Positions 5,245 to 57,526 of a DNA stretch of 64,000 nt are shown piece by piece. The DNA is from a virus. The notes under the pieces were generated by a model. That model did not search any database. It saw nothing but the letters and a program-made list of their open reading frames with translations, and was not told where the DNA came from. Both the position numbers and the translations under genes were made by a program. The DNA lies in IMG/VR virus record IMGVR_UViG_3300028874_000010, positions 48,369 through 112,368 of that record. One strand, 5' to 3'. Position 1 is the first letter of the stretch; the number at the start of each line of letters is the position of its first letter.

Positions 5245-5443
5245 TATTCTTTCCAATTAACGTGCAAATTTTATTGCACTATCTACTTCATCACCAAAGG
5301 CCACTTTATCACAATCCGGATAAAACCACGCGATACACCCAGTAGGTAGTTCGATTTTGAATTCATCTATTTTATCAGCTATGAATTCATAACGAGCTAG
5401 AATTATTTCTAACTCTTCCTGAGTATATTTTGTGCTAAGCCTG

Positions 5444-6751: not shown

Positions 6752-6752
6752 A

Positions 6753-6977
6753 TTATTCTTTTCCTGAAGTAGGAGTTATTTTAATTCTACAAGCAAATAA
6801 CTGATTGGTGACGTTAGCTGATGGCCCATTATTTTCCAAGAGCACAGCTTGTTCACATGTCTGAGCATGAGCTATTGCATCATTTGCTTTGACATTGTAA
6901 CTCCAAATGAAGAAACCAAGCCCAAGAATAACACTTGCAACCGCTATCCAAAATGCGCACCAAACATTATCTCTCAT
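6753..6977 (-). CDS. small membrane protein
   Basis: N-terminal hydrophobic helix. Confidence 0.55.
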   Translation of the reverse strand: MRDNVWCAFWIAVASVILGLGFFIWSYNVKANDAIAHAQTCEQAVLLENNGPSANVTNQLFACRIKITPTSGKE

Positions 6978-7085
6978 AATACTTTCTCATTATCAAATTA
7001 TATGCGATCTCTAGAAATTAATCTAGAGGCCTCTTCTCTCTACTTATATTAAATTTTAGGAAAATCTTTATAACATATATCTAAG

Positions 7086-7115
7086 AAGGTTACTCCGTAA
7101 TATGGAGTAACCTTC
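7086..7115. terminator. hairpin / probable terminator after yeaG
   Basis: GAAGGTTACTCC...GGAGTAACCTTC inverted repeat. Confidence 0.55.
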
Positions 7116-7135
7116 CTCAAATTCTATTGCGAGAA

Positions 7136-9076: not shown

Positions 9077-9223
9077 TAACAACTCCTATTATTTTCAAAG
9101 TTTTGATTGAGAGAAACTACTGGTGAATCTACTACTATTATTTTGTGGTTCAGCATAAATACGATTTTTACACACAAGTTTTTTATTGTAAATCAAATTA
9201 GACTTGTTATTATGCTTTGCAGC

Positions 9224-34395: not shown

Positions 34396-34470
34396 TGGAG
34401 ACGCTACGGAGAATTGAACTCGCGATTTATTCCTTGAAAGGGAATTTTCCTACCTTTAGAAGATAGCGTC
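34396..34470 (-). tRNA. tRNA-Glu(TTC)
   Basis: ATTCC-CTTTCAA-GGAAT, CCA. Confidence 0.85.
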
Positions 34471-42393: not shown

Positions 42394-42798
42394 TTATTTT
42401 TGTGTTGATGCTAGCGCAGCTAACCCTTTTTCTGTGATATTCCACATCCCATCGATTGCTATAATCAATCCGCGTTTTTCCAAGAAAAATTCACATCCAG
42501 TGTAAGTCATAACTCCACTAGGCATAGTTCCGGTCTCGGAGAATATTGCAACTGCTCCCAATGCGGCAATTTCATCTTTCCTGTGGGTACCTTGTTCTTT
42601 AACAATACCAAACTCATCTAAAGGCGTTTGGCGTCTGTATGCAAGGCTCATAAAGAAATGTCCAGATCTGTTACTATTGATCTGGCACATCTCATAACCC
42701 TGTTGTTCCATTTCATACTGGAATTCTCTAGCTGCCAAATCACTATAGAAAGATCCAACTTCATATTCAAATGGAGATAGCAAAATTTCAGTAGTCAT
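42394..42798 (-). CDS. hypothetical protein
   Basis: ORF in gene run. Confidence 0.55.
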   Translation of the reverse strand: MTTEILLSPFEYEVGSFYSDLAAREFQYEMEQQGYEMCQINSNRSGHFFMSLAYRRQTPLDEFGIVKEQGTHRKDEIAALGAVAIFSETGTMPSGVMTYTGCEFFLEKRGLIIAIDGMWNITEKGLAALASTQK

Positions 42799-43529
42799 TT
42801 ATGTTTACTCTTTGGTTTACGAAATGAGAATTTGTCGAAGCCATGTTGTGGAATTCTGTACTTATCTTCGATTTCTATAGGCATCTGTGTACTTGTCGGC
42901 AAGACACCAGAAATAAACATATCAAGTTCTTGATATGCCATTTGATGATCAAACATTTTATAAAACTGAAAATCTTTTAAATTCGAACCATTCAAAATAA
43001 TCTGGTATTCAAAATATCCTTCATGACTAGAAGTTGAAACAATCCAACGATTCTCAATACAGAAATCCATCAACTCTGAAGTTCCTTGTTTTTCAAGAAA
43101 ATCATGAATTTTTAAACTCTTAAGACATTCAACAATCTTTAAAGTCTTTGGCTTCCAATATCGATCGCTAAGAACTTCTTCATGCCCATATGACACCAAA
43201 AAATCTACAAGCTCATCAAAATTATAGAATGTTTTAAATTCATGTCTAACGCCATAAAACTGAGAAGAATCCTGGACTGTTATTTTAGCTCTAATCCCAT
43301 GATACAAATTGCCACAAAAAAGAATATTGACACCATCAATTTTGATTTCAATATCATTTTTCTTAAATGTTTTTGTACACTTATTACCTGTTGTAAGTAT
43401 ATTAGCAACGAAACCTGGTAATTGGGCTGCATACAATTGTTCACCAAGGCGCATGAAAGTCACAGACATGTCTTGTCCGTGTTGCATCATGCAATCATAA
43501 TAATCTCGAACTTTCGCGATGATATGCAC
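42795..43529 (-). CDS. conserved phage protein
   Basis: DYYD N-terminus; FYK..D...AYQE..MF...HGFDK.SFR C-terminus. Confidence 0.65.
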   Translation of the reverse strand: MHIIAKVRDYYDCMMQHGQDMSVTFMRLGEQLYAAQLPGFVANILTTGNKCTKTFKKNDIEIKIDGVNILFCGNLYHGIRAKITVQDSSQFYGVRHEFKTFYNFDELVDFLVSYGHEEVLSDRYWKPKTLKIVECLKSLKIHDFLEKQGTSELMDFCIENRWIVSTSSHEGYFEYQIILNGSNLKDFQFYKMFDHQMAYQELDMFISGVLPTSTQMPIEIEDKYRIPQHGFDKFSFRKPKSKHK

Positions 43530-43532
43530 AAT

Positions 43533-44888
43533 TCACCTCTTAAATTTATACTCATGTCCATTATACCCAACTTTTAGGAATGCAGGCCTGGCAATATTTG
43601 ATATGCTATATAATGTTCTAACCATCTCGTAATCTTGGGCACGACTCCATGAATAGCGTGAAGAATCTGATCCGTATTTTGGATTTTTCTCTAATCTGAT
43701 CCGCTCACCACACTTGAGTCTAGTAACGGCAGTTTCATCTTGAATAATCTTTACAATCGAAAGTGGTGGAACAGGACCTTTTCCATCAAGCCATTCTGGA
43801 TATGGAAAAGAGTCAGGCCAATCTTTAGCATTATACCCGTACTTATTAAATTGCGCACGATTTCCATACCAATGATTTGTATTGGTATTAGCATCAGGAA
43901 AAGCTTTTAACTTTGATAATGACCCATCAGTGTGAATCAATACAATCGGCCCAAAGTAATATTCTAAATCACCACCATGACTATAATCAGTATTTTTCTT
44001 TTTAGTTAATAGATCATCTCGAAGTTCATCAAAAGTAAAACTATCAATAATAAATTCCATTTTGACTTCTGTAGGTTCTTTACAAGTGAAGAACAAAAGA
44101 TCATTAGGATTATCTGAATTGCCAGCCACAGTAATACTACAATTTTTTCTAGCTTTACTATTTAAGAATTCTTCTGCTTCTTCAGAAGTATAAATCTTTT
44201 TGCCATCTGATGCATTGATAATCTTAGGCCCAGCAACAAAATACAATTGGCCAGAATCGGTGAAAATGATATATGAAGAATCAAACTTGATTTCCGCATA
44301 TGTTTCAGGTTCTAAACTGGTATATGCATAATAAAATTTACCGAAGAAAGTTCCTTTTATACCATTCTTAAGATCAACATGATCACCAAGTTTCAAATCT
44401 TTAAGAGATAAAGACTTCGCATAATGCCGTTCTGTTGTCTTTTGAGATGCTGTATAAATTTCCGAATTGACCGGAAGTAAAACAATTTTAGATCCATTTC
44501 CTTTATCCCAACCAAAGACACATTCGCCTTGAATTTCGCCTTTTAGAATATCAGTATACTGAAATAATTTTGCTACATTACCAGACGAGATTTCGATTTC
44601 AAACCCACGAGGATCAACAACACGCCACCAAGTCGTTGTATCATTCCACCCACCGCCATGTGTAACGTTCTTAGACATCCGGTATCCAGAACGAGACTCA
44701 TTGTCAAAAATATCGGACGGCTTCTTGGTCTTATGATTTGACCATCCATCTATTGTAGATTGGCGTTTGCGAAAAGCCGCATTGTCTTCCTTGTATGTTG
44801 CAAAACCAAGATACTTGGCTTCCGTATTAGGAAGAATTGAGTAGCCGACATAAAGCTCGGCTGGTACAACAATATTTTCTTTGCCCAT
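43533..44888 (-). CDS. conserved phage protein
   Basis: LGFAT, DPRGFEIEISSGN motif. Confidence 0.65.
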   Translation of the reverse strand: MGKENIVVPAELYVGYSILPNTEAKYLGFATYKEDNAAFRKRQSTIDGWSNHKTKKPSDIFDNESRSGYRMSKNVTHGGGWNDTTTWWRVVDPRGFEIEISSGNVAKLFQYTDILKGEIQGECVFGWDKGNGSKIVLLPVNSEIYTASQKTTERHYAKSLSLKDLKLGDHVDLKNGIKGTFFGKFYYAYTSLEPETYAEIKFDSSYIIFTDSGQLYFVAGPKIINASDGKKIYTSEEAEEFLNSKARKNCSITVAGNSDNPNDLLFFTCKEPTEVKMEFIIDSFTFDELRDDLLTKKKNTDYSHGGDLEYYFGPIVLIHTDGSLSKLKAFPDANTNTNHWYGNRAQFNKYGYNAKDWPDSFPYPEWLDGKGPVPPLSIVKIIQDETAVTRLKCGERIRLEKNPKYGSDSSRYSWSRAQDYEMVRTLYSISNIARPAFLKVGYNGHEYKFKR

Positions 44889-45280: not shown

Positions 45281-45838
45281 TTATCCTTTTATTAAATTCA
45301 AAAGTTGTCGACCACGTTTATCAATATGCTTAAATTTGATCTTAAAGGATGTCGATTCTATCCCGCCAAACATAGCAGCGTTGGAATGAATCTCACACAA
45401 TCCAGTGATCATCAACGAGATAGCTTCAGGACGTCGCGAGAACTCTTCCAGGGCCTCTGCCTTGAGAAGATGAATATCCATATCCATTCTAATCAGGCGC
45501 CCTATAGCGGCGTTCCTGGGGTTCTGGACGGTATGTAAAGTCCATTGATCGTATGAGGCTTCTGCATGATTTGGAAAGCGTTGTTTTCCATCAGCATCTA
45601 TCGTAACACAAATCGGTTTCCCTGAATCGTGAAAGGTGTGGTAGTCACGCATAATATCCAATTCAAATAAATTAGCTTTGATGAATTCTTTGTTAGCGAT
45701 TAACCAATCTGGTAATCTCCATTCATACGATAATGGTTGATCATCAAAAAGATAGTTATGAAGATCAAGATAATAATTATGAACTGATTGACCATGTTCC
45801 AAGATCGATTGACCTTTAGATTGGAAACATGTCTTCAT
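45281..45838 (-). CDS. HD-domain protein
   Basis: EHG, HDSGKP, F.NHA, NAAMFGG..STSFK. Confidence 0.65.
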   Translation of the reverse strand: MKTCFQSKGQSILEHGQSVHNYYLDLHNYLFDDQPLSYEWRLPDWLIANKEFIKANLFELDIMRDYHTFHDSGKPICVTIDADGKQRFPNHAEASYDQWTLHTVQNPRNAAIGRLIRMDMDIHLLKAEALEEFSRRPEAISLMITGLCEIHSNAAMFGGIESTSFKIKFKHIDKRGRQLLNLIKG

Positions 45839-45865
45839 TGGTTCTTCAAGCAGGGCGTAATTAAC

Positions 45866-46264
45866 TCATGACATGATACTCTCCAATTCGATTTTAAGTT
45901 TAGCAATAGCCTCTTCTTTATATGTCACGTTCTTCTTTGCATCTTCAAGTTCAAATTCATACTTCGTAATTTGTTTCTCCACACCCCATATTTTTACAGC
46001 TTTGATAGGGTCTTCAGATCTGATAAGCTTCATTGGGATTCTGTATGAACTAGAATTAGAACAGCCTCTGGCTGACCAACTAGTTTCAATGTGTAATATG
46101 TCATGATCTATTTCTAGAGATTCTATCTGGTCATTCATGAGACCACCATAGCCTGCAGCTTCCACAAGTTCAGAAAGTTTGCGTTGGCACTCGTTGATAT
46201 CGGGGTTTTTGTATTTGCTGATATCAAATGATGCTTGTTCTATAAGTTCGATGATGGTAGTCAT
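45866..46264 (-). CDS. hypothetical protein
   Basis: GAGG RBS. Confidence 0.55.
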   Translation of the reverse strand: MTTIIELIEQASFDISKYKNPDINECQRKLSELVEAAGYGGLMNDQIESLEIDHDILHIETSWSARGCSNSSSYRIPMKLIRSEDPIKAVKIWGVEKQITKYEFELEDAKKNVTYKEEAIAKLKIELESIMS

Positions 46265-46273
46265 TTATTCACC

Positions 46274-46570
46274 TCAGTAGGATAAAAGTTTATTGGTGTA
46301 TTTCTTGGTAAGCTTAATTAAAACATCGCCATGGCAACGGGATGGTGAGCACCAACACCCAAGAGTTTTGCCTAGCAATTCCGGCAAACTACTTAAAAGT
46401 TCTGGCATCATTTCAATATATTCTTCATACATCGAAATGACTTCTTCTCTGGTACCATCTATTCCAATAACGAATGGATTAGCCTACTTAGAGGCAGGAA
46501 GATTGTGATGGTCATTCTTCCTACCTATGTAGACATCATATGGATGTTTAAGGCAATGAACTACTTTCAT
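46274..46570 (-). pseudogene. DUF4326-family gene with in-frame TAG
   Basis: MKVVHC..YDVYIGR...SK*ANPF...LGCWCSP..CHGDVL; TAG at 46484-46486 where Trp is expected. Confidence 0.75.
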
Positions 46571-46892
46571 AGGTTGGTTTATAAAGGTTATACTTAGTCA
46601 TGATTCTTCGTGTCTTCATATCTTTGATAGGCATTGTCGCAATTGCAGAATGTCCCATATCAAAATCCGGTTCTTTGAACATTGTATACTTGATGTCATA
46701 CCGTTCAAGCCGTTGTGCAATCTCATGGAGTTCAGCTTTGTTTTTAGCTGGCAACATAATGATGCTAGAGATCGGATCATCAGAACCATGAAGAGTTTTT
46801 CCGGCTTCTAGCGCGGCATGAGAAAGCTGAACCATTTGCTGAGCGAGAGAAAGATCGGTTCGGATGAACACATAAGTGTATGGGTGATCCAT
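46548..46892 (-). CDS. PTH2-like peptidyl-tRNA hydrolase
   Basis: YVFIRTDL..AQQMVQ..HAA, F.EPD, SAIAT.P. Confidence 0.7.
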   Translation of the reverse strand: MDHPYTYVFIRTDLSLAQQMVQLSHAALEAGKTLHGSDDPISSIIMLPAKNKAELHEIAQRLERYDIKYTMFKEPDFDMGHSAIATMPIKDMKTRRIMTKYNLYKPTYESSSLP

Positions 46893-46894
46893 GA

Positions 46895-47245
46895 TTATGC
46901 ACCTCCAAGCTTGGTCAGATCATGATGGAGACTATCAAGGATCAATAGGAATCGGGTCCATTGCTCTGGTGTCAATTCAAGCCCATATGTCCAAGTATTG
47001 GATTTCTGTTTAGTCCAATAGATCAGACCTCGGAGTGCAGCATCATACGCGTTAAACGGAGGAGTTTTGTGCTTGCAAGGAGAGAATGCTTTGGTAGCTT
47101 TAGCCTTAATATCAGGCACAGCCGAAGCAAAGATTGCGTGAGTGAGATAATCAGCAGAGTCAAATGTATGTTTGTCTGCGTGCGATTTTTTCCAGGCAGC
47201 GATGAAAGATTCGTGCTGGGTCTTGCTAAGAATAAAGTCGAACAT
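46895..47245 (-). CDS. hypothetical protein, first gene of the PTH2 operon
   Basis: AAAGGA RBS before MFDFIL. Confidence 0.6.
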   Translation of the reverse strand: MFDFILSKTQHESFIAAWKKSHADKHTFDSADYLTHAIFASAVPDIKAKATKAFSPCKHKTPPFNAYDAALRGLIYWTKQKSNTWTYGLELTPEQWTRFLLILDSLHHDLTKLGGA

Positions 47246-47251
47246 GATATT

Positions 47252-47357
47252 TCCTTTGAATGTATTTTGTGGGTACTGTGAATAATTGCTATTCTGGATG
47301 TAGCCACACATTCAAGGAGATTGGGATTTAACTCATAACATGATAGTATTTCCTTTT
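47252..47357 (-). promoter_or_regulatory. minigene ATG-TTA-TGA plus RBS-sequestering hairpin
   Basis: SD AAAAGGA; minigene 47333-47341; 47304-47318 pairs with 47252-47272. Confidence 0.55.
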
Positions 47358-47627
47358 AAAATAATTACTGGTGAAATGGCACCAGTACCAAAAGTATTTA
47401 TAAGCGTTTTAGATCATTAATACAAATCCCAAACGCTGTACCTATGAACCAATTGTATAACACTTCATCATCGCCATACAACTTTTTTTTCTTGAAATTT
47501 ATCACAAGTTCTTCTTTCAAGTTTGGATCCGATTTAAGATTCATAACTATTGGTTTATCCCAAGACAACATTTGGATTGTCTTGGACCATAGCGAATCAA
47601 TCAAATCTTGATAAGTACCAACACACA

Positions 47628-48305
47628 TTATTGAACTACCAAATTGATACCGTATTTTTGTTTTGCATCAAGTTGAATAGCTCGGAGTTCAGCTTGTGAA
47701 GCGCGATTTGTTGTAGCCACAGTTAGTATAGGCTGAACCACAACTGGTTCAATTGGTGTCACAAGAATATTAAGCTTGGCTGGTTGATTAGTGATGATAT
47801 CAATAACCGGTCGACCTGCAGCAATCCATTCTTTTTCAGTCATTGGACATCCAACCATATAATATGAACCTTTAGTTGGTCCCGGAATTTGAATGCCACC
47901 AGCCATACTGATTGCATATCGATAATGATCATTAGTACAAACCATCACAACAGCAGCGCGATATTGACCCATGTTCCAAAGTTGACTGGAGTCTTTGACC
48001 AACTTACAATCCTCATCAGACCAAGTTGTTCCCATTGAGAAACTAAACATTGAACTGCCACCGCCTACACTTGAGGATCCCATACATGGCGCGGAAGCAG
48101 TTAAAGCTGGTGCGATTGCAGTTGATGCCGGATATTTAACAGTGCTATTTGTCACTGGGTCATATTCAAGAGCACCACCTAGAGCCTGTGATGTCGAACC
48201 AACTGTTTGTGTTTGGGCTGTATTTGTTGCCGCGGATTGAGCAATTACACTTCCGGAAAACAACAAAGTAATGCATACCAATGATGCAGAAATAAACTTT
48301 TTCAT
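47628..48305 (-). CDS. secreted Cys-containing protein
   Basis: Signal peptide; AIAPAL...CMGS.S.G...G.T..D.DC. Confidence 0.65.
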   Translation of the reverse strand: MKKFISASLVCITLLFSGSVIAQSAATNTAQTQTVGSTSQALGGALEYDPVTNSTVKYPASTAIAPALTASAPCMGSSSVGGGSSMFSFSMGTTWSDEDCKLVKDSSQLWNMGQYRAAVVMVCTNDHYRYAISMAGGIQIPGPTKGSYYMVGCPMTEKEWIAAGRPVIDIITNQPAKLNILVTPIEPVVVQPILTVATTNRASQAELRAIQLDAKQKYGINLVVQ

Positions 48306-48330
48306 TATTATCTTTTAGAGAAATTCTAGG

Positions 48331-48363
48331 AGTCAAGTAAAACAGAAACTGTTTTACTTGACT
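48331..48363. terminator. long perfect hairpin
   Basis: AGTCAAGTAAAACAG-AAA-CTGTTTTACTTGACT. Confidence 0.6.
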
Positions 48364-48381
48364 TAATTACTTCAATATCGA

Positions 48382-49194
48382 TTACTGAGCAATCGACGCA
48401 ACAGCGGGATCGTTGAACGCGCCATCAACATTAACAGAGTTATTAGCAGAAGCATTACCGCTAACATTGTTGGTGTTTGTTTGGAACGGTGTTACACCTG
48501 CACCCATGCCAACGGATAGGGTATTGGTCACATCAACATTCGACACCGAAGTCTTGGTGTCATTGATTTGGCCAACAACATTAACACCGGTCGTTGTACC
48601 ATCATTTGTCGTATCAGCACCAATGGAACCATTGACATTGAATGCATCAGCAGTATTGGCTGTTACAGCACCACCGCCATTTGTTGTAGCGTTTACACCA
48701 ATACTTGTACCTTGGCTACCGGTTCCCTTGCCACCATCAAGACTTGTTCCGATTGAACCATTTAGGGTCAATGTTTGTTCAGTTTGATAACCATTGCCGA
48801 TGTTGGCTCCAGCATTATTATATGAACCCGCTACATCAAGTCCAGCTGCAGCCGAACCATTTGTGCTTGCCGAACCAACGCCATTACCAGTAGAAACGTT
48901 GAACGCATTACCGGAATTAGCTGTTGCGGTTTGACCAGAAAGATTGATCGAAGCACCAACACCGCCAGCACCTGGAGCAACTTGGTTGAATGAAGCTTGG
49001 CCATTCGACATTGTACTTGCAATGCCGGTTGCCGAACTGTATGAACTACCAGCTTGACCAAGATTGGTTTGTGCCGATGTTGAGATTGTATTGTTGATCG
49101 AACCAACGTTTGTCAAATTGACTGTTGGGGCACCAGCAAAAGCTGATGTCGAAAAAATGAGTGCAGCCGATACAGCGAAAAGAGTCTTATTCAT
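48382..49194 (-). CDS. secreted Gly/Asn/Ser/Thr-rich beta-rich protein
   Basis: Signal peptide ending AFA; low-complexity body nearly free of charged residues. Confidence 0.7.
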   Translation of the reverse strand: MNKTLFAVSAALIFSTSAFAGAPTVNLTNVGSINNTISTSAQTNLGQAGSSYSSATGIASTMSNGQASFNQVAPGAGGVGASINLSGQTATANSGNAFNVSTGNGVGSASTNGSAAAGLDVAGSYNNAGANIGNGYQTEQTLTLNGSIGTSLDGGKGTGSQGTSIGVNATTNGGGAVTANTADAFNVNGSIGADTTNDGTTTGVNVVGQINDTKTSVSNVDVTNTLSVGMGAGVTPFQTNTNNVSGNASANNSVNVDGAFNDPAVASIAQ

Positions 49195-49558
49195 ATGGTC
49201 TTATTAATAGTTTGAAAAGTGTAAACGGAATGTTTACATGAGTTAGAACTTAATCAGTTGGACGTAAAACGTCTCTTGACTTAAGAGATGATATTCTACT
49301 TCATTGATAGGAAATGTACATTGATATTTTGCAAAATCATCAATATTGAGTTAAATATTCTCTAGATAAAAATCAGTGAGTACTGATTACACAAACCTGC
49401 TGGACATGCGTAGTAATGATAATTTTATGGTTTGGGAATCTATCTTTAAATTGATGTTCAATTTTACCGATACTAAAGTCGCTTAGATCTGGATCCACTT
49501 TAACCCAGATAACATCGTTTGGAAGAAGTGGCCCAATTACATTTTGATTGTCATATAG

Positions 49559-49774
49559 TTATAAGATGGTAGCAATTAAAGTAATTTGTCTTGGTTGATC
49601 ACCATCTTCTGTTGTTTTGGTGTAGCGAATATCAAATTTAACTTTACTGGTATCAGTAGGATCTAAATCTTCAATAGCATAACTAGTAACTTGGTTGTTG
49701 CTTTGATCTACCAGAATAGCAAGAAGAGCATCAAGAGTTTCTTGACCTAAAGTGAATTGGTATTTAGTTGTCAT
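49559..49774 (-). CDS. small hypothetical protein
   Basis: ORF. Confidence 0.45.
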   Translation of the reverse strand: MTTKYQFTLGQETLDALLAILVDQSNNQVTSYAIEDLDPTDTSKVKFDIRYTKTTEDGDQPRQITLIATIL

Positions 49775-49799
49775 TTTATGAAGTTGTTGTTCTATTACT

Positions 49800-49916
49800 T
49801 GGTGGGTGGTTAGGAAATCGAATCCATTTGCAGTTTATGTAGTATCAGGAAGAACCGACGCCTGTTTGATAGCTTCCCTGCATCACCTATACTATGGCCA
49901 CCTTCGGCAACCACCC
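49800..49916 (-). ncRNA. tRNA-like RNA with acceptor stem, T arm and ACCA but no canonical anticodon arm
   Basis: GGGTGGTT/AACCACCC-ACCA; GGA-TTCGATT-TCC; expanded centre. Confidence 0.6.
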
Positions 49917-49927
49917 AGTGTTTTAAA

Positions 49928-50215
49928 TTACCAACCAGCAATAGCTGTTACATCTTTATAATGTCGTTTTCTAAGGCGTGTTGGTTTTGCTGGACCGACC
50001 ATGATTGGATACACAAAACAATTGAAAAATGTTTTATGGACCTTCCAGCCTACGACCCAAACACCAGGTTTAAGTTGATATGGGAGTTTTTCGTTGTTCC
50101 ATGCATCCTCTACATACTTCTTAACTACCTCTTTGGTCTGTGTATCGGGATCACCAAATGCAAACCTAACACTATTTAGAGCAGACAGTAGGCCGCCCGA
50201 TAATTCAGCAATCAT
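49928..50215 (-). CDS. hypothetical protein
   Basis: ATGA overlap. Confidence 0.5.
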   Translation of the reverse strand: MIAELSGGLLSALNSVRFAFGDPDTQTKEVVKKYVEDAWNNEKLPYQLKPGVWVVGWKVHKTFFNCFVYPIMVGPAKPTRLRKRHYKDVTAIAGW

Positions 50216-50736
50216 GCAACTAACCCGAGTGCGGCTCGACCAAGTTCATGATTGCCATAAGTCTTTGACAATGCATCCGATGTTGTCATACTCCGAAATG
50301 CACGTTCATGAAATTGTTCATCTACTAAAATTTTAGTAAACACTTCGCGAATATCCCGAGGAGCTGTTTGATCTTCACTAATAACTTGAATGCGTTCTAG
50401 ACGCATTGCTTCAGCATGAGTAGTGACAGCAGTACCGGTTTCGAAACTATCAATTCCTGGTAGTGTAGAAGCCCAATAGCGGTTCTCTGCATTCTCGGTT
50501 GAAGGTGTTATACCACGAGATGTTAAAAGCCCTAGGACCCATGAAGCATGAGTTTCTTCTTGTTGCGCAATAACAGAAAGAGTTTTAAGGTCATGACCGT
50601 TAACGTTAAACTGAAGTGCTAATTTGCGAATTCTAGAGGCAGCGGTAAGTTCACCCCGGTATTGTTTGACTAGCCATTCCTTCAGCAATGAAGGAGAAGC
50701 TTTAACTTCATTCCACCAAGTTTGAGATGTTTTCAT
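50212..50736 (-). CDS. ferritin-like di-iron protein
   Basis: E..(EETH)..E..(DEQFH) four-helix ligand pattern. Confidence 0.7.
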   Translation of the reverse strand: MKTSQTWWNEVKASPSLLKEWLVKQYRGELTAASRIRKLALQFNVNGHDLKTLSVIAQQEETHASWVLGLLTSRGITPSTENAENRYWASTLPGIDSFETGTAVTTHAEAMRLERIQVISEDQTAPRDIREVFTKILVDEQFHERAFRSMTTSDALSKTYGNHELGRAALGLVA

Positions 50737-51044
50737 ATTCTATATTTGTTATTGTTTAAAATGGCACATCGTATTTAAAAATAGATAGGGGTTCACCGAA
50801 TTCATTAAGCAGCTACACTTCTAGGTTGGCTCGATAATATTCATAGAAACGTAGCCGGCCTAAAGAGACTAAATCTTTAATTAACCTATGAATATCGCCA
50901 ACGTCTGCCCCACTTACCAGTTGTACATCTTAGGCATCTTGCTGATCTATTTTATTTCTGGTAAAGTTTTATCGAGAGCTTATCCTGAGAAGGATTTACG
51001 GTTAACCAGCTCTCATCATGATATTAAGTAGGTTATCACACTTT

Positions 51045-51323
51045 TTATTTTAATGCTAAGATTGTTAATGCTTGAATTAGTTTTTCACGAGCGAGTTCGA
51101 TTGATCTATCGGTATCTGTAGTCCATCTAGCATCGTTATAGCTTAGTGCTGCACTAAGCTCCCGATTTGCTTGTTCTAAACAGCCACAGAGTTTCTTAAT
51201 AACAGAATCATGATCTGGTTTTGATTCAGCATTCTTACCTAACAACAAACCAAGTTTAGCTTCGCCGATCCCAGACTCAGCTAATCGCTCAAGCACTTGC
51301 TTATAAATCTGTTCTGCCGTCAT
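51045..51323 (-). CDS. hypothetical protein
   Basis: ORF. Confidence 0.5.
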   Translation of the reverse strand: MTAEQIYKQVLERLAESGIGEAKLGLLLGKNAESKPDHDSVIKKLCGCLEQANRELSAALSYNDARWTTDTDRSIELAREKLIQALTILALK

Positions 51324-51416
51324 AAATTAGAACTCACAAAATGTAATAAAAATTATTCTTTCGAAGAACCAATTGTAAACTCAATTTTGCCCATTGAATA
51401 CATATCATTTTCGGAA

Positions 51417-51776
51417 TTAGAACTTTGCCGCAAGAGCTTCCATGATGTCAAGTTCTTCGTTTCTCAAATCACGGACTTGTCCTTCGCGAACTGCTTGACA
51501 GAAGGCCATCATATTGACAACAGCCCGAACAGTCGATGCATCAAACTTCTCAACCTTGTGAGCGGTTGACCCATTATTGAACCAACCATCTGCGCCATCT
51601 GGTCCCTTGATTTCTTCATCATCATCATTCGGACCATAGATAATTTCAAGATTGTCATCTGTCAAACCCTTGAGAGCTTGAACGATTTGGATAACCTGGT
51701 CCTTCTTGATCGATTCTGTAATCGTGGGTTTGGCTAGCTTAACACCAGCCAGTTGGGCAATACGCTTGATGTCCAT
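51417..51776 (-). CDS. hypothetical late protein
   Basis: Start MDIKRIAQLAG; the track N-terminus is tRNA sequence. Confidence 0.6.
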   Translation of the reverse strand: MDIKRIAQLAGVKLAKPTITESIKKDQVIQIVQALKGLTDDNLEIIYGPNDDDEEIKGPDGADGWFNNGSTAHKVEKFDASTVRAVVNMMAFCQAVREGQVRDLRNEELDIMEALAAKF

Positions 51777-51796
51777 TATATTTCCTATGCATTGGG

Positions 51797-51871
51797 TGGC
51801 GCGGGGATGGGAATTCGAATCCCATACTCCTGGGTGGAAGCCAGACATGTAACCGTCAACACTTTCCCCGC
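51797..51871 (-). tRNA. tRNA-Gly(TCC), G73
   Basis: GCGGGGA acceptor, CTGG-CTTCCAC-CCAG, CCA. Confidence 0.82.
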
Positions 51872-51946
51872 AATAATTTGATACTGTAAAATATTACATT
51901 TCTATTTATATCACTTTACAGTATCATGTATAGCTTTTTGCCAAAC

Positions 51947-52318
51947 TTATCTCGTAGGCCTATCTTTATATTCAGCCTTCAAATCTTTAGTAAGTTTTTT
52001 TGCTTCTTTATCAGTTAATTCGCGAGTTAGAAAAATATCATATCCAACACCAAATTCAATTCCTTTTTTCCAATCATAACCTTTCTGAACTTCTACTTTC
52101 TTAATGATTGGTTGGCCGGCTTTCTTTACCACTGATCCAAGAACCAAATGTTCCGGGAATTCGAATGTTACTTCAAATATTACCGTATCACGATTGACTT
52201 CAATAAGGTTAAAAGCAGAATGCCTAACGTTAGTAATCTCTCTAATCGCAGTCTTGATTAACTCAATTACGTCTATTTAGTCAGAAGCGGCCGCTTCAAA
52301 TAATTCTTTGATTTTCAT
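51947..52318 (-). pseudogene. MKIKELFE-type gene with in-frame TAA at codon 14
   Basis: Frame is open on both sides of TAA 52277-52279; TAATG coupling to the upstream gene. Confidence 0.65.
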
Positions 52319-52716
52319 TACATTGGTCCCATTGCACATGTAGCCAATGATTGAAGAGTTTTTGCCAAAGTTTCAGTAATGCTAGGATTTTTTGCTAATA
52401 TCGTAGCAGGTTTAGCAACTCGTTTTAATACTCCGCCATCACCTTCATGTTCAAATATAGAACCCATGTAAAGCAAAGCAAGTTTCATATTTGCTGGAGT
52501 ATTTAAAAATTCTTTCAACTCCGATTTGGCTTTACCTCGAATCAAGTCTGCGGAACTTTTTGCTTGTTCAAGATTTTCCTTTCTTACTTCTTCATCTTTT
52601 TTATCTCTGGTATCAGAGGCCAAATAATATTGGAACATCATATCAACAATTTTATTACTAGATGTCATTGTCGCTACACCTTCATTCAACTGTAGCAATT
52701 CTTGAATTAGACTCAT
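52318..52716 (-). CDS. hypothetical late protein
   Basis: MSLIQELLQLNEG; ATAAATA upstream. Confidence 0.6.
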   Translation of the reverse strand: MSLIQELLQLNEGVATMTSSNKIVDMMFQYYLASDTRDKKDEEVRKENLEQAKSSADLIRGKAKSELKEFLNTPANMKLALLYMGSIFEHEGDGGVLKRVAKPATILAKNPSITETLAKTLQSLATCAMGPM

Positions 52717-52754
52717 AAATAACCTTTAAGTGGATGGTATCTTATTTATCTTAT

Positions 52755-53171
52755 TTATCTAACAATGATCCACTTACGATCATTATGACGTGCTTTCATT
52801 TTATCCCAGAAGGTCGAACTCAAGCTTGCCTTTCCATCACTAACTTTAGTATGATCTTTAACTTTGATGGTTAAGTGTTCTGGAAGACTAGCAACAATGC
52901 ATTCTACAAAAGATGTGCCAAGGCCTTTATCTTTAAGACTTTCATCTAGATAAAAATTATCCAGATAGACATATGTTTCGTGTAGCCATAGATCGAATTC
53001 AATCTGGTCATTGGTATGATGACGTGTAAAGATATGGTCTATCTTGCCAGAGATATCGACAGGCTTTTCAAAAGATTTATGACAGAAATCCTTAATGTTC
53101 TTCACTACTTGCTTGCGCAGAGCATTAAGTTGATCTGGAGATAATTCTTGTTTAATTTCTTTGAGAAGCAT
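52755..53171 (-). CDS. GNAT-like late protein
   Basis: LDNFYL...KGLGT.FV...FWDKM. Confidence 0.55.
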   Translation of the reverse strand: MLLKEIKQELSPDQLNALRKQVVKNIKDFCHKSFEKPVDISGKIDHIFTRHHTNDQIEFDLWLHETYVYLDNFYLDESLKDKGLGTSFVECIVASLPEHLTIKVKDHTKVSDGKASLSSTFWDKMKARHNDRKWIIVR

Positions 53172-53270
53172 TTCGTTACAGTCCTTGTGTTTTTAGTATT
53201 TATAAGCACGAGAACTGTAACGGTATAAAAAGGGAGGCAGCAAAGGGGTTGCGCCAGTCCCATAAACTTG

Positions 53271-53348
53271 TGGTAGTCTGTATCGGATTCGAACCGATGA
53301 CCTACTGTTTTGAAGACAGATGCTCTAACCAGACTAAGCTAACAGACC
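53271..53348 (-). tRNA. tRNA with TCA anticodon (opal/UGA suppressor)
   Basis: CTGT-CTTCAAA-ACAG; standard 7/5 class I body, A73, CCA. Confidence 0.82.
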
Positions 53349-53389
53349 ATAGAAGCATTATACACAAACAAAACAACATTGTACATCTT

Positions 53390-53710
53390 TTAATAATTAA
53401 TCGTTTCACCAAGATGTTCGAGCATACACGCCAAAGTAAAAAACAGAGTGCTCAACTTTGCTGTTGCCTTTCCGTGGCCAATTGCATGAATAGCCAGAGA
53501 ATCCGACATGTTTATAAAAAACTGGCCTTCATTTTCAATTTTATTGCAATTATCATACATATTACCAATAGGTATAAGGTATGATAATTGTTGGGATTTT
53601 GCTTCATCAATAGCGGTTAATAAAGTTTTGAGTTCATACGAAGATCCGTATTTTTTGTGTGCCAAATTATAAAGATCTGAAGCAGTAGTTATTCCAGTAT
53701 TGGATAACAT
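53390..53710 (-). CDS. hypothetical protein
   Basis: GGAG RBS. Confidence 0.5.
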   Translation of the reverse strand: MLSNTGITTASDLYNLAHKKYGSSYELKTLLTAIDEAKSQQLSYLIPIGNMYDNCNKIENEGQFFINMSDSLAIHAIGHGKATAKLSTLFFTLACMLEHLGETINY

Positions 53711-53956: not shown

Positions 53957-54277
53957 TTTACTATCTCGGAATTAGGTCCTGCCAAAAGTACTATGTATAT
54001 ATGGCAGGACTATATACATAGGATCCAAAACGACGATCATGGATCACTAGCCGATTTTATTACGTCGATTACAACTTCAAGGTCCCGGCTTTTGGTGCTG
54101 GTTTTAAGTAGCTATATCGGGAGAAAGCCAGCAAAAGTCCGATACACGTATCCAAGTCAATAGATATTTCGATGGATCATCCGGTGATGTAAATCATACC
54201 TAAAGAGATTTCTCTCCTCACCGCAAAACCATTGTATTCCAACATAACGAGTTTGTAAACAACAATTTTCACATACG

Positions 54278-54386: not shown

Positions 54387-54833
54387 ACTGTATTTATAGC
54401 AGGAAAAAAGTTTCGTATAGGAATTGGTCTTCACCAATGACATTTTTTATAGGCTGTCTGACCTTAAATTGCAACATACTCCGACCTATACCTCAGATGA
54501 CATTTCAGGAAGTCATCTCCTTGCCTCTTTATTCATGATGTTTAGACCTACCGTTTATCCAGTTTATGGTGACGATAACCCGTACGCATCACAACGCTTC
54601 ATTGAAGGATCCTCAGTTATGAGAATCCTTCTCCACTTCTAAAGAATCCCACGGCTCTATTTTCATCCATTGAACAATTGGGAACTACCATTCAACTTCA
54701 GTGTAGCACTTATAAAGGATCAATATCAAAAATTTAATGAACCTTCACTAATGGTCTACAAGCATTACGTTAGAGGTTTGTACCACAACCAACGTGAGAT
54801 GAATTATATATCAATTCTAGGAAAAGTGTAAAA

Positions 54834-55273: not shown

Positions 55274-56608
55274 TTATACCAATTCTAATAATGCTTTGTA
55301 TTCATCAAAATATACCGATTTCTTATGTGTTCCAGCCATGATTGATTCCCAAGAATTATCTCTGAGATAAGCCATTTCATTCCAAATCCCGCCAGATAAA
55401 GAATTGCCATTCATTTCTTTATTTAGCTCTGTTGCTTTTTTGGTAACATCATCAAAGGTAAATAAATCTTTGTATTTCCAAGAGGCATCCAGATTTAATT
55501 CATATCCATATTTGTCTGCATTATTCGCAAACTCGGATCCATATTCTTTATTTGGATTTAGAAATAATGGATAGAACATTGCAAAACTTAATGTATCATT
55601 TGACTTGATCCATTCCACTGTAGCATGATGTTCATCAAGAGTAGAATGAGGAAGCCCAACAATAAAAATCGACATAAGTCTGGTTAAAGGCCATTCTTTC
55701 TGTAACTTAAATAATAATTCTTTAACTTTATCTGGATGCATTCCTTTTCCAATCGCTTTTCCGGATTGATGGTTGAATGTTTCAAGTCCAAATTGAGCAC
55801 CTCGCAGCCCCATATCCCTGAGAATAGGAATTTGCTCAGGAAAAGCATGGAGTAAATCATGCCTGAGATAGCAAACAAAAGAAATTTTTAGATTTCTTTT
55901 AGAAAGCATATTGGCGATCCCTTCTATTTTAGAAGTAGTATCATTAAAGGTATCACATGTAATGTAATAATTGGTCGATCCAAATTTATCTCTATTATAT
56001 TCTATCTGGTCTCCAATCAGTTTAGGATCCCTGTTATAATCAAATTTGTCTCGGCCTCTTAAACTGAAAGAACAGAATTTACAGTTAAAGATACATCCAC
56101 GAGAAATTTCTAATGGGAGTGTTTCTCTAGGTAAAATGAAATCATCATTGGTGTACCTATGTTCCAGTGTTTGGATATCACTTCTGTATTTAGGAACCAA
56201 GATATCAAATGCTTTAAAAATATCTTCTTCATTTTTACCGTTTACATATCTTGCATTTCCGAGTGGGAGCTCTATTGCATTCCCTCCAACTACCACTTTA
56301 CCTGGATTGACTTGTTTTATAAAATGATGAAGCTTAGCAATCTTAGGAGTATTGTAATCAACATCAGAAACATTCAATCTATTAGAGATAGCTTTGAACA
56401 TCCAAGCTGCAGAAATTCCTAAGTAATCAATGTTCTTATATCTTGATGCTAATTGATCAAGTTCGTCATAACTGAAATGTCCAAACCGATCTAGTGTGTA
56501 CGCCCGAAATCCATTCTTTCTTAATAAGAAAGCAATATACGAAGCCGCATAAGTTTTATAATGAATATCTGGTGTATACGTATCCTGGAGGATTAAAGCA
56601 GTCTTCAT
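55274..56608 (-). CDS. B12-binding (class B-like) radical SAM protein
   Basis: N-terminal cobalamin-binding-like domain (LGIS, VVVGG); EISRGCIFNCKFC; DTFND; FGLET; FIVGLP. Confidence 0.8.
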   Translation of the reverse strand: MKTALILQDTYTPDIHYKTYAASYIAFLLRKNGFRAYTLDRFGHFSYDELDQLASRYKNIDYLGISAAWMFKAISNRLNVSDVDYNTPKIAKLHHFIKQVNPGKVVVGGNAIELPLGNARYVNGKNEEDIFKAFDILVPKYRSDIQTLEHRYTNDDFILPRETLPLEISRGCIFNCKFCSFSLRGRDKFDYNRDPKLIGDQIEYNRDKFGSTNYYITCDTFNDTTSKIEGIANMLSKRNLKISFVCYLRHDLLHAFPEQIPILRDMGLRGAQFGLETFNHQSGKAIGKGMHPDKVKELLFKLQKEWPLTRLMSIFIVGLPHSTLDEHHATVEWIKSNDTLSFAMFYPLFLNPNKEYGSEFANNADKYGYELNLDASWKYKDLFTFDDVTKKATELNKEMNGNSLSGGIWNEMAYLRDNSWESIMAGTHKKSVYFDEYKALLELV

Positions 56609-56681
56609 ATATGGTTGTATTAGGTAGGTTATACTAAACGTCCTGGCGGCGAACAAGGGCGGCCAGCGTACTTCTAAATGC

Positions 56682-56714
56682 AAAATGGGCTCACTAATAT
56701 AGTGAGCCCATTTT
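56682..56714. terminator. bidirectional hairpin terminator
   Basis: AAAATGGGCTCACTA-ATA-TAGTGAGCCCATTTT. Confidence 0.75.
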
Positions 56715-57326: not shown

Positions 57327-57526
57327 TTTGAAAACTCCATTAAGTTAGACCATGGAATCATTATATCAAAACTTTCAAGATATGTAAAATTTTTATTTTA
57401 TATTGTTCCTAACTCTATCAATAAGTTTTACACCAGTAAATACCTCATATTTTTTGAGCTGGTTTATTGCTTTTTGCTATAATACTCTCAGAATCATGAG
57501 AGTATTTATAGCAAAAATGGTGCGGG

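What the first reader, a model, noticed from the sequence alone, without database searches (positions are those of the whole stretch)
53271..53385. Opal-suppressor tRNA(UCA) with its own early-type promoter in a genome that still uses TGA as stop
Seen: a canonical class I cloverleaf with loop CT-TCA-AA and A73, lacking the long arm and 8/5 fold of tRNA-Sec and the G73 of Trp. TATAAT lies about 10 nt upstream and a terminator-like hairpin downstream. Many genes here end in TGA (ATGA overlaps), so wholesale recoding is unlikely. Inference: regulated read-through (for example of the 47333 and 47312 UGAs), ribosome rescue when RF2 is inactivated, or a decoy. The charged amino acid cannot be determined from sequence.
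Basis: partly seen in the sequence, partly recalled or inferred. Interest (0 to 1): 0.72.

Follow-up and report, generated by a model that had tools for sequence, protein, structure and literature searches.

The report
Opal-suppressor tRNA keyed to phage operon
A large uncultured peat phage that otherwise uses UGA as a normal stop carries a genuine UGA-reading tRNA, and conserved UGA codons at the start of an operon for two tRNA-end-processing enzymes look like its dedicated targets, which would explain why standard-code jumbo phages keep 'orphan' suppressor tRNAs.

Summary
Window 53271-53348 (minus strand) encodes a canonical class I tRNA with anticodon UCA, A73 and an encoded CCA. It is not tRNA-Sec.

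- **Not an error:** the sequence is identical in four independent peat metagenomes. The closest relative, a 185-kb record of a 349-kb contig, also carries UCA tRNAs.
- **Standard code:** both phages use TGA as an ordinary stop (46 of 183 and 70 of 273 ORF-genes). Wholesale recoding is not seen, although neither fragment samples the capsid or tail genes.
- **Probable targets:** these lie 6-7.5 kb downstream on the same strand, in a Pth2-like operon. A leader reads ATG-TTA-TGA, and its read-through tail pairs with the next gene's Shine-Dalgarno. An HD-domain gene begins ATG-TCA-TGA. Both sites are conserved in the relative.
- **Covariation:** in at least 16 other lineages, including cultured RsoM2USA, XacN1, GAP32 and fHe-Yen9-04, the same two gene families carry in-frame TAG and the phage carries tRNA(CUA). 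An unrelated contig (L092) pairs ATG-ACC-TGA with tRNA(UCA). I saw no mismatched pair.

Best reading (about 0.65): a dedicated suppressor that unlocks this operon. The inserted amino acid and the benefit to the phage are unknown, and nothing here is experimental. The scan noted the amber version before on other DNA. I found no published description.

The parts
53271..53348 (-). tRNA(UCA), class I, A73, G1-U72, encoded CCA; anticodon at 53311-53313
   Evidence: ARAGORN; Rfam 68.4 bits; identical in 4 independent peat runs; UCA tRNAs also in relative G001
53357..53385 (-). sigma-70-like promoter match TGTACA-17-TATAAT, ending 8 nt before the tRNA 5' end
   Evidence: 10 of 12 matches; not statistically supported
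53227..53261 (-). imperfect hairpin followed by U5, terminator-like
   Evidence: fold, -13.3 kcal/mol, z -0.49; not called by the strict scan
47312..47341 (-). leader ORF ATG-TTA-TGA(47335-47333)-GTT-AAA-TCC-CAA-TCT-CCT-TGA, with AGGA 9 nt upstream; candidate UGA gate 1
   Evidence: sequence; relative has GGAG-8nt-ATG-TTG-TGA-GTG-TAC-TTA-CAG-CGT-CCA-CCT-TAA, synonymous differences at V, Q and P; no variant in peat runs
47252..47318 (-). predicted hairpin pairing the 3' end of the read-through leader with the Shine-Dalgarno (AAAGGA, 47258-47253) of the 116-aa gene
   Evidence: MFE folds of the window (z -1.0) and of the relative (z -3.3) give the same arrangement, with a G-C to A-U compensatory change
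46895..47245 (-). 116-aa gene of unknown function, first gene of the operon; true start MFDFILSKTQ
   Evidence: aligned with the relative's MDTKFDFILTKTQ; no Pfam or PHROG hit
46548..46892 (-). Pth2-like peptidyl-tRNA hydrolase, 114 aa, ordinary start with GGAGGT
   Evidence: Pfam PTH2 22.9 bits, just under the cut-off of 23; AF2 model pLDDT 83; top 13 PDB fold hits are all Pth2, probability 1.00, TM 0.60-0.73
45866..46264 (-). 132-aa ORF ending at the TGA that is also codon 3 of the HD-domain gene, same frame
   Evidence: homolog of the same length and frame in the relative
45281..45874 (-). HD-domain phosphohydrolase-like gene (phrog_14850) starting GGAG-6nt-ATG-TCA-TGA(45868-45866)-GTT...; candidate UGA gate 2
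   Evidence: phrog_14850 E 1e-58; codon-level conservation of the 9 codons after the TGA; HD signature in the alignment; AF2 pLDDT 96; best fold hits are class II tRNA nucleotidyltransferase entries 3WFO-3WFS

Best explanation
The gene encodes a functional opal-suppressor tRNA whose conserved job is to read a few UGA codons at the start of one operon, not to recode the genome. The operon lies 6-7.5 kb downstream on the same strand. It encodes a 116-aa protein, a Pth2-fold peptidyl-tRNA-hydrolase-like protein, a 132-aa protein and an HD-domain phosphohydrolase resembling part of class II tRNA nucleotidyltransferases. Gate 1 is a leader ORF, M-L-UGA. A ribosome that stops at codon 3 leaves a hairpin over the Shine-Dalgarno of the first gene. 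A ribosome that reads through continues for six more codons into the 5' arm of that hairpin and frees the site. Gate 2 is the HD gene, which begins M-S-UGA, so the enzyme is made only when UGA is decoded, either from that start or as a read-through fusion with the 132-aa ORF. A stop at codon 3 may favour the suppressor because release factors act poorly on very short nascent chains (established knowledge from minigene studies, applied here by inference). That would let a weak suppressor open these gates without much read-through at the 46 normal TGA stops. What is shown: the tRNA, the conserved UGAs, the protein folds, and the covariation of stop type with anticodon. What is inferred: that the tRNA is expressed and charged, that it reads these UGAs, and the hairpin mechanism. 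What is unknown: the inserted residue and why the phage gates these enzymes.
For: (1) The tRNA is real and canonical and is invariant in 4 independent peat runs. (2) The closest relative, G001 (Pth2-like 67% and HD-like 73% identical), has two tRNA(UCA) genes and no CUA tRNA among 48 tRNAs. One of them shares the D arm, the CU-UCA-AA loop and A73-CCA with the window's tRNA, and its acceptor stem differs by paired changes. (3) Both phages have ATG-NNN-TGA at the start of the HD gene. The 9 following codons differ mainly at synonymous third positions (gtt/gtg, aat/aac, ctt/ttg), and in the window no ATG, GTG or TTG start follows the TGA before the conserved linker. (4) Both phages have an M-L-UGA-V..Q.P leader and the same predicted SD-masking hairpin. 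(5) The Pth2-like and HD-like genes are neighbours in 27 loci. In other lineages they carry in-frame TAG at codon 3-7 or at conserved internal positions. (6) The suppressor type matches the stop type. TAG goes with CUA in 16 lineages, including cultured RsoM2USA, GAP32 and fHe-Yen9-04 (PMC8504454) and XacN1 (PMC5852040). TGA goes with UCA in the window and G001, and in the unrelated L092 (ATG-ACC-TGA plus tRNA-UCA, Rfam 59.5 bits; its analogue L072 has ATG-ACC-TAG plus CUA). There are no mismatches; Fisher p = 0.0065 treating lineages as independent. (7) A suppressor tRNA lies within 10 kb in 33 of 79 Pth2-like loci against 1 of 13 control tRNA-rich loci. (8) TGA is an ordinary stop elsewhere in both phages.
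Against: Nothing is experimental: expression, charging and suppression are all untested. Only two independent opal lineages support the TGA-UCA side of the covariation. Here the tRNA lies 6 kb from the operon rather than adjacent to it, and the Pth2-like gene itself has an ordinary start. Eight loci (the 'MNSYIYT' subgroup) have a CUA tRNA about 40 nt behind an uninterrupted Pth2-like gene. So linkage exists without a visible gate, and gating may not be the whole story. In G001 a GTG follows the TGA, so the HD gene could start there without read-through. Termination followed by reinitiation is not excluded. The window's hairpin is not energetically unusual (z -1.0). Agrobacterium phage Atu_ph07, which has a UCA suppressor (PMC6102473), lacks the HD partner, and its divergent PTH2-like gene has a normal start. 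A suppressor active enough to open the gates should also extend some of the 46 TGA-terminated proteins.
Confidence: 0.65

Rival explanations
1. Late-gene recoding. The tRNA serves a switch to TGA-as-sense in structural and lysis genes, as in TGA-recoded gut phages. Those genes would lie in the roughly 68% of the genome not on this contig.
For: The contig is rated 32% complete and carries only early and auxiliary genes. The mechanism is established for other phages (Borges et al., bioRxiv 10.1101/2021.08.26.457843). The metagenome record holding the relative's remaining DNA could not be searched.
Against: TGA ends 25% of genes in both phages, without the depletion described for relatives of recoded phages. 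Coding density under code 11 is high throughout 112 kb and 185 kb. The relative's large terminase and a baseplate-like gene are intact under code 11. No release-factor domain is encoded in either fragment. The cultured relative RsoM2USA is annotated in the standard code and has an intact Gp23-type capsid gene.
Confidence: 0.1
2. The tRNA's main role lies elsewhere: a counter-defence spare or decoy for a host tRNA-targeting nuclease, or a tool to disturb host termination or rescue ribosomes when RF2 is impaired. In this reading the Pth2-like and HD enzymes handle its by-products, and the in-frame UGAs only couple their synthesis to it.
For: The phage invests heavily in tRNA and translation maintenance: about 16 tRNAs, a tmRNA, a CCA-adding enzyme, an Rnl1-type ligase, a PP-loop ATPase and Pth2-like genes. 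Linkage of suppressor tRNA and Pth2-like gene persists in loci without a gate. Discriminator bases of the suppressors differ between lineages (A, G, U), so the inserted residue seems unimportant.
Against: There is no direct evidence for a nuclease target or for RF2 inactivation. A decoy does not need an anticodon that tracks the stop type of the neighbouring genes.
Confidence: 0.15
3. Neutral or decaying tRNA. It is an elongator tRNA (Arg-UCU-like or other) that drifted to UCA and has no selected function. The in-frame TGAs would then be ordinary gene boundaries bypassed by internal starts or reinitiation.
For: The nearest annotated phage tRNAs by blastn are tRNA-Arg at 76-83% identity, and UCU to UCA is one change. 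The first anticodon-stem pair is a U-U mismatch. G001 has a GTG right after the TGA.
Against: UCA is kept in a relative only about 70% identical in protein, with compensatory acceptor-stem changes. The tRNA lacks A20, the main ArgRS determinant (sequence; identity rule from established knowledge). In the window no standard start codon follows the TGA before the conserved linker. An independent UCA and TGA pairing occurs in L092.
Confidence: 0.05

Closest known systems
Phage-encoded suppressor tRNAs in stop-codon-recoded phages (code 4 and code 15 crAss-like, Lak, Jade, Garnet; Borges et al., bioRxiv 10.1101/2021.08.26.457843)
   Same: A phage tRNA with a stop-reading anticodon, encoded in standard-code DNA, is proposed to switch on genes that contain in-frame stops.
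   Different: There the recoding spans many late, structural and lysis genes, lowers code-11 coding density, goes with depletion of that stop as a terminator, and often comes with RF or aaRS genes. Here TGA remains a normal stop (25% of genes), no RF domain was found, and only one small operon of tRNA-end enzymes carries conserved in-frame UGAs, at codon 3.
'Orphan' suppressor tRNAs of cultured standard-code jumbo phages: XacN1 (CUA, PMC5852040), RsoM2USA (CUA, PMC8504454), Atu_ph07 (UCA, PMC6102473)
   Same: Standard-code jumbo myoviruses with tens of tRNAs, one or two suppressor tRNAs and Pth genes. RsoM2USA is the closest cultured relative of this phage (HD-like 60%, PrkA 60% identical).
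   Different: Those papers report no target; XacN1's authors tested only read-through of terminal amber stops. Here I found candidate targets, and I found them in XacN1, RsoM2USA, GAP32 and fHe-Yen9-04 as well. Atu_ph07 does not share the module.
prfB (RF2) autoregulation through an in-frame UGA
   Same: An early in-frame UGA makes synthesis of a translation factor depend on the balance between termination and an alternative decoding event.
   Different: prfB uses a +1 frameshift and senses RF2 itself. Here a dedicated tRNA would decode the UGA in frame, and the products are a Pth2-like hydrolase and an HD phosphohydrolase.
Leader-ORF translational attenuation with an SD-masking hairpin (ermC / cat type)
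   Same: A short leader ORF with its own SD; its 3' part pairs with the SD of the next gene, so ribosome position in the leader decides downstream initiation.
   Different: The signal would be read-through of a stop at codon 3 by a phage tRNA, not drug-induced stalling.
Lambda bar minigenes (AUG-AUA-stop) and Pth (from established knowledge, not tested here)
   Same: Start, one sense codon, then stop, functionally tied to peptidyl-tRNA hydrolase activity.
   Different: bar minigenes poison Pth-deficient cells by peptidyl-tRNA drop-off. Here the two-codon frames continue in frame into conserved coding sequence.

Membership tests
Canonical class I elongator tRNA (Rfam RF00005) | Cloverleaf with 7/4/5/5-bp stems and a full-length match to the covariance model above the gathering score | tested here: met
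   68.4 bits against the gathering score of 29, model positions 1-71; ARAGORN call; one U27-U43 mismatch
Canonical class I elongator tRNA (Rfam RF00005) | Conserved tertiary nucleotides (U8, A14, G18G19, U33, purine 37, T loop UUCGAAU) and a short variable loop | tested here: met
   Read from the sequence; variable loop AGGUC, 5 nt
tRNA-Sec (selC) | 8/5 acceptor/T-stem geometry, 6-bp D stem, long variable arm | tested here: not met
   7/5 geometry, 4-bp D stem, 5-nt variable loop; ARAGORN's 'SeC' label is by anticodon only
Bacterial tRNA-Trp(UCA) of code 4 organisms | G73 discriminator (main bacterial TrpRS determinant, established knowledge) with a CU-UCA-AA loop | tested here: not met
   Loop matches but the discriminator is A73 and the first pair is G1-U72; the phage's own tRNA-Trp(CCA) has G73
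tRNA-Arg(UCU)-derived suppressor | A20 in the D loop and C35 (ArgRS determinants, established knowledge) | tested here: not met
   C35 present, but the D loop reads GGUUA (U20), whereas G001's tRNA-Arg(UCU) reads GGAUA. Similarity to phage tRNA-Arg is only 76-83%
Genome-wide stop-codon recoding (code 4) with phage suppressor tRNA | Many genes with in-frame TGA; low coding density under code 11 | tested here: not met
   Minus-strand ORF cover 0.82 under code 11 across 112 kb; extensions after TGA are no longer than after TAA; same in the 185-kb relative. Late genes of this phage are not sampled
Genome-wide stop-codon recoding (code 4) with phage suppressor tRNA | Depletion of the recoded stop as a terminator; accompanying RF1 or aaRS 'code change' genes | tested here: not met
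   TGA ends 46 of 183 and 70 of 273 genes; no RF-1 domain in either fragment
Suppressor-tRNA-gated Pth2-like/HD module (no published description found; noted earlier in this scan) | Pth2-fold gene next to a phrog_14850 HD-domain gene | tested here: met
   Fold hits to Pth2; HD signature and fold; adjacent in 27 loci
Suppressor-tRNA-gated Pth2-like/HD module (no published description found; noted earlier in this scan) | Conserved in-frame stop early in (or inside) one of the two genes or their leader | tested here: met
   TGA at codon 3 of the HD gene and of the leader, both conserved in G001. Here the Pth2-like gene itself is not interrupted
Suppressor-tRNA-gated Pth2-like/HD module (no published description found; noted earlier in this scan) | Phage-encoded suppressor tRNA whose anticodon matches that stop | tested here: met
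   UCA with TGA here, in G001 and in L092; CUA with TAG in 16 lineages; no mismatch
Suppressor-tRNA-gated Pth2-like/HD module (no published description found; noted earlier in this scan) | Read-through of the stop by that tRNA actually occurs | not testable with these tools
   Needs reporters, proteomics or ribosome profiling
ermC/cat-type leader attenuation | Leader ORF whose 3' part pairs with the downstream SD | tested here: met
   Predicted in both phages. Prediction only; the window's z-score is -1.0

The most novel reading that the evidence does not exclude
The suppressor tRNA, the Pth2-like hydrolase and the HD phosphohydrolase form a self-contained sensor and repair circuit. The codon-3 stop sets the phage tRNA against the host release factor, so read-through reports the state of the tRNA pool or of termination, for example under attack by tRNA-targeting or translation-targeting defences. 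The output is enzymes that clean tRNA 3' ends, peptidyl- or N-blocked aminoacyl-tRNA in the case of Pth2 and phosphorylated ends in the case of HD. In a stronger form, tRNA plus Pth2-like act together as a release-factor-independent way to resolve ribosomes at that stop codon. Either form would give the orphan suppressor tRNAs of standard-code jumbo phages a general function.
Probability: 0.15. Interest if true: 0.85.

Novelty: new variant of a known kind. Interest (0 to 1): 0.74.

Why it matters
Suppressor tRNAs in phages that plainly use the standard code have been reported repeatedly as unexplained. [quoted passage not shown] A conserved target would turn these tRNAs from curiosities into parts of a defined translational switch. 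That target is an early in-frame stop, matched in type to the tRNA's anticodon, in an operon for two enzymes that act on tRNA 3' ends. The opal case here matters because it supplies the covariation: TAG to TGA together with CUA to UCA, in two independent lineages. That is the strongest sequence-only argument that the tRNA reads those stops. The idea is directly testable in cultured phages (RsoM2USA, XacN1, GAP32, fHe-Yen9-04). It also has a practical consequence: gene callers miss or truncate these genes, and the Pth2-like gene is unannotated in several GenBank records.

Tried and rejected
- **The look-up of encoding contigs closed:** The 159-kb contig carrying an identical Pth2-like protein, and the contigs of its 57-73% identical homologs, could not be fetched.
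- **tRNA pattern scans:** exact-pattern scans of IMG/VR for the tRNA body with a free anticodon found nothing.
- **Single-sequence locus searches:** searches with the Pth2-like and 116-aa proteins found nothing. The profile search worked.
- **Late genes of the opal lineage:** the 349-kb metagenome record behind L049 is not held, so these could not be checked. PF04984 found no sheath gene even in RsoM2USA, so that probe was uninformative.
- **Atu_ph07 as a third opal lineage:** it has no HD partner and no early TGA in its divergent PTH2-like gene. This gives no support. It is also not strong evidence against, because the module is absent there.
- **Amino-acid identity:** nearest-neighbour comparison with 406 tRNAs was inconclusive; the top hits mix Val, Thr, Lys, Met and CUA suppressors. 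The blastn resemblance to tRNA-Arg is generic.
- **Other same-frame ORF pair:** 43533-44888 and 42795-43529 are two different PHROG families, so ordinary neighbours.
- **Generic ATG-NNN-stop scan:** it gives background hits for all three stops, and only the HD gene is conserved between the phages.
- **Pth2-like profile against PDB sequences:** only weak hits (E 0.015 and above); the fold search was needed.
- **Sequencing runs:** no RNA holder listed, so nothing can be said on expression.
- **Promoter and terminator:** matches are not above shuffled expectation.

Full report
**The object**

ARAGORN finds a 78-nt tRNA at 53271-53348 on the minus strand with anticodon UCA. The Rfam tRNA model matches it end to end at 68.4 bits. 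The sequence shows:
- a 7-bp acceptor stem with G1-U72, a 4-bp D stem and G18G19;
- the loop CU-UCA-AA, a 5-nt variable loop and a canonical T loop;
- A73 and an encoded CCA.

It has none of the tRNA-Sec geometry. Such matches are not enriched in the region. The downstream hairpin with a U5 tail is imperfect and energetically unremarkable. So the tRNA is confirmed, and its 'own promoter and terminator' are plausible but not shown.

**Context**

The window is the last 64 kb of a 112,368-bp IMG/VR contig rated 32% complete, with GC 37%.
- Almost all genes are on the minus strand.
- Identifiable genes are early or auxiliary: thymidylate synthase, topoisomerase II subunits, Rnl1-type RNA ligase, NAD salvage, two DnaJ, an FtsH-like protease, PrkA/DUF444/SpoVR, a CCA-adding enzyme, radical SAM enzymes and a PP-loop ATPase.
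- There are also about 16 tRNAs and a tmRNA.
- The nearest cultured relatives are XacN1-like and RsoM2USA-like jumbo myoviruses.

**Code usage**

Under code 11 the minus strand is 82% covered by long ORFs along the whole contig. Of 183 ORF-genes, 126 end in TAA, 46 in TGA and 11 in TAG. The in-frame extension after TGA stops (median 8.5 codons) is no longer than after TAA stops (median 10). TGA is therefore an ordinary stop in the sampled DNA. No structural genes are sampled, so late-gene recoding cannot be excluded from this contig alone.

**Is the anticodon real and conserved?**

- The closest relative is G001, 184,871 bp, part of a 348,873-bp metagenome contig. Its Pth2-like protein is 67% identical and its HD-like protein 73% identical.
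- G001 has 48 tRNAs, including two with anticodon UCA next to a tRNA-Met, and none with CUA.
- One of the two shares the D arm, the anticodon loop, the variable-loop type and A73-CCA with the window's tRNA. Its acceptor stem differs by paired changes.
- G001 also uses TGA as a normal stop (70 of 273). It has an intact large terminase and a baseplate-like gene under code 11.
- Contigs from four independent peat runs are more than 99% identical over 45281-53400. They vary only at 45500, 47279, 50236 and 52180, never in the tRNA or the TGAs discussed below.

The anticodon is not an error, and it is kept in relatives.

**Candidate targets**

I re-examined the region.

The operon on the minus strand reads, in order:
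- a leader ORF at 47341-47312;
- a 116-aa gene at 47245-46895;
- a Pth2-like gene at 46892-46548;
- a 132-aa ORF at 46264-45866;
- a phrog_14850 gene running to 45281.

Three points came out.
1. **HD gene.** The 132-aa ORF ends at a TGA (45868-45866) that lies in frame with the phrog_14850 gene. In both phages the junction reads GGAG, 6 nt, ATG-NNN-TGA, then VNY..L..P-MKTCFQ. The nine codons after the TGA differ mainly at synonymous third positions. In the window, GTT follows the TGA, so no standard start precedes this conserved stretch. The gene therefore appears to begin M-x-UGA, or to be a read-through fusion with the 132-aa ORF.
2. **Leader.** The leader is conserved. The window has ATG TTA TGA GTT AAA TCC CAA TCT CCT TGA, and G001 has ATG TTG TGA GTG TAC TTA CAG CGT CCA CCT TAA. 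V, Q and P are kept through synonymous changes. The second stop is TGA here and TAA in G001, so it is the terminator of the read-through peptide, not a second gate.
3. **Hairpin.** In both phages the minimum-energy fold pairs the last codons of that peptide with the Shine-Dalgarno of the 116-aa gene. The pairing includes a G-C to A-U compensatory change (z -3.3 in G001, -1.0 in the window). A ribosome released at codon 3 would not reach this arm. One that reads through would melt it.

**What the gated genes are**

- The 114-aa protein scores just under Pfam's PTH2 cut-off (22.9 against 23 bits). Its AlphaFold model (pLDDT 83) matches only Pth2 structures at the top of the PDB search: 13 hits, probability 1.00, TM 0.60-0.73.
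- The phrog_14850 family has the invariant pattern H...HDxGK...H...D...H of HD phosphohydrolases. Its model has pLDDT 96. The best structural matches are the class II tRNA nucleotidyltransferase entries 3WFO-3WFS (probability about 1.0, TM 0.55-0.63, E only 0.02-0.1), followed by other HD enzymes.

Both proteins therefore look like enzymes that act on tRNA 3' ends. That is an inference from fold.

**Covariation across phages**

- The two genes are neighbours in 27 fetched loci.
- In other lineages one or both carry an in-frame TAG. Forms seen: ATG-NNN-TAG at the Pth2-like start in many loci; ATG-NNN-TAG or TAG at codon 5-6 at the HD start; and mid-gene TAGs at fixed positions.
- The same holds in cultured phages. 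RsoM2USA has TAG at codon 3 of the Pth2-like gene and codon 4 of the HD gene. XacN1 has TAG at HD codon 3. GAP32 and fHe-Yen9-04 have TAG at Pth2-like codon 4 plus a mid-gene TAG in the HD gene.
- Each of these carries tRNA(CUA) (PMC5852040; PMC8504454).
- Among 79 loci, 33 have a suppressor tRNA within 10 kb, against 1 of 13 tRNA-rich control loci (p = 0.027).
- The stop type and the anticodon never disagree. TAG goes with CUA in 16 lineages. TGA goes with UCA in the window plus G001 and, independently, in L092. L092's Pth2-like gene is only 34% identical, and its analogue L072 has the same M-T-stop start with TAG and CUA. Fisher p = 0.0065 if lineages are taken as independent.

**Limits**

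- Only two opal lineages exist in my sample.
- Eight loci have a CUA tRNA directly behind an uninterrupted Pth2-like gene. So the physical linkage is broader than the gate, and the enzymes may act on the suppressor tRNA or its products.
- Atu_ph07, a cultured phage with a UCA suppressor (PMC6102473), lacks the module.
- The inserted amino acid is undetermined. A73 argues against bacterial TrpRS, U20 argues against ArgRS, and nearest-neighbour analysis is uninformative.
- The discriminator base varies among the suppressors of different lineages, and the gate sits in non-conserved N-terminal tails. This suggests the residue matters little.
- In four amber loci a mid-gene TAG falls on a nearly invariant Trp, hinting at Trp for those CUA tRNAs.
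- No RNA run was listed, so expression is untested.

**Literature**

Papers on XacN1, RsoM2USA and Atu_ph07 report the suppressor tRNAs and Pth genes but no targets. The stop-codon-recoding literature describes genome-wide late-gene recoding and does not mention a hydrolase. I found no description of the pairing in the searched library. This scan has noted the amber version several times on other DNA. I treated those notes as leads and re-derived the evidence here.

**Verdict**

The tRNA is real and conserved. The most likely role, at about 0.65, is a dedicated key for UGA gates in a tRNA-end-maintenance operon of an otherwise standard-code jumbo phage. It is a new variant of phage suppressor-tRNA recoding, confined to one operon.

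Noticed in passing
window 13870-57600 (all tRNA genes): The tRNA set of this fragment reads almost only UNN codons: Ser x5, Leu UAA/CAA/UAG, Tyr x2, Cys, Trp and the UCA suppressor. Gly-UCC and Met are the exceptions. These are the A36-A37 tRNAs that are normally i6A37-modified. The relative G001 keeps the same types in one cluster and the other tRNAs in another.
   Followed up: no
window 55274-56683 (-): A 469-aa radical SAM protein 2 kb from the tRNA. Its homologs (27-39% identity) lie beside tRNA clusters in 8 of 13 huge-phage loci, one of them with a CUA suppressor (L008). It is a candidate tRNA-modifying enzyme.
   Followed up: partly
L028, L029, L037, L038 (HD-like genes); L042, L067 (Pth2-like genes): Mid-gene in-frame TAGs at fixed positions. 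In the HD-like genes the TAG falls on the nearly invariant Trp of an LPxW motif, which suggests those CUA suppressors insert Trp.
   Followed up: partly
GenBank records MG752970 (RsoM2USA), KY630187 (Serratia BF), MT939486-8 (Erwinia), LT960551 (fHe-Yen9-04): The Pth2-like gene has no annotated CDS under the tblastn match, and the HD-like gene is split in GAP32 and fHe-Yen9-04. The early or internal TAG defeats gene callers.
   Followed up: partly
L022, L023, L025, L026, L032, L033, L035, L048: A Pth2-like subgroup starting MNSYIYT or MSYIYT has no in-frame stop, yet a tRNA(CUA) lies about 40 nt (up to about 600 nt) downstream. L032 has CUA and UUA suppressors in tandem.
   Followed up: no
G001 72535-72610 (-): The relative's second tRNA(UCA) is atypical (Rfam 30.3 bits, no CCA). 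It differs from the first and from the window's tRNA.
   Followed up: no
window 34399-34470 (-): Rfam calls a tRNA here (47.9 bits) inside the tRNA array that ARAGORN does not report.
   Followed up: no
window 3721-9082 (-): A PrkA / DUF444 / SpoVR (YeaG-YeaH-YcgB-like) triad in a phage. It is shared with G001, RsoM2USA and uncultured phages of about 640 kb.
   Followed up: no
window 54803-54832, 57360-57388, 54231-54259, 51352-51379, 53357-53385 (-): Several intergenic T(T/G)TACA-N16-18-TA(T/C)AAT sites on the coding strand, including the one before the tRNA. They may be a family of phage early promoters, although the overall count is not above shuffled expectation.
   Followed up: no
window 47279: One of only four population variants in 8.1 kb (T>C, seen in two peat runs). 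It lies in the loop region of the predicted leader hairpin, not in the SD-masking stem.
   Followed up: no
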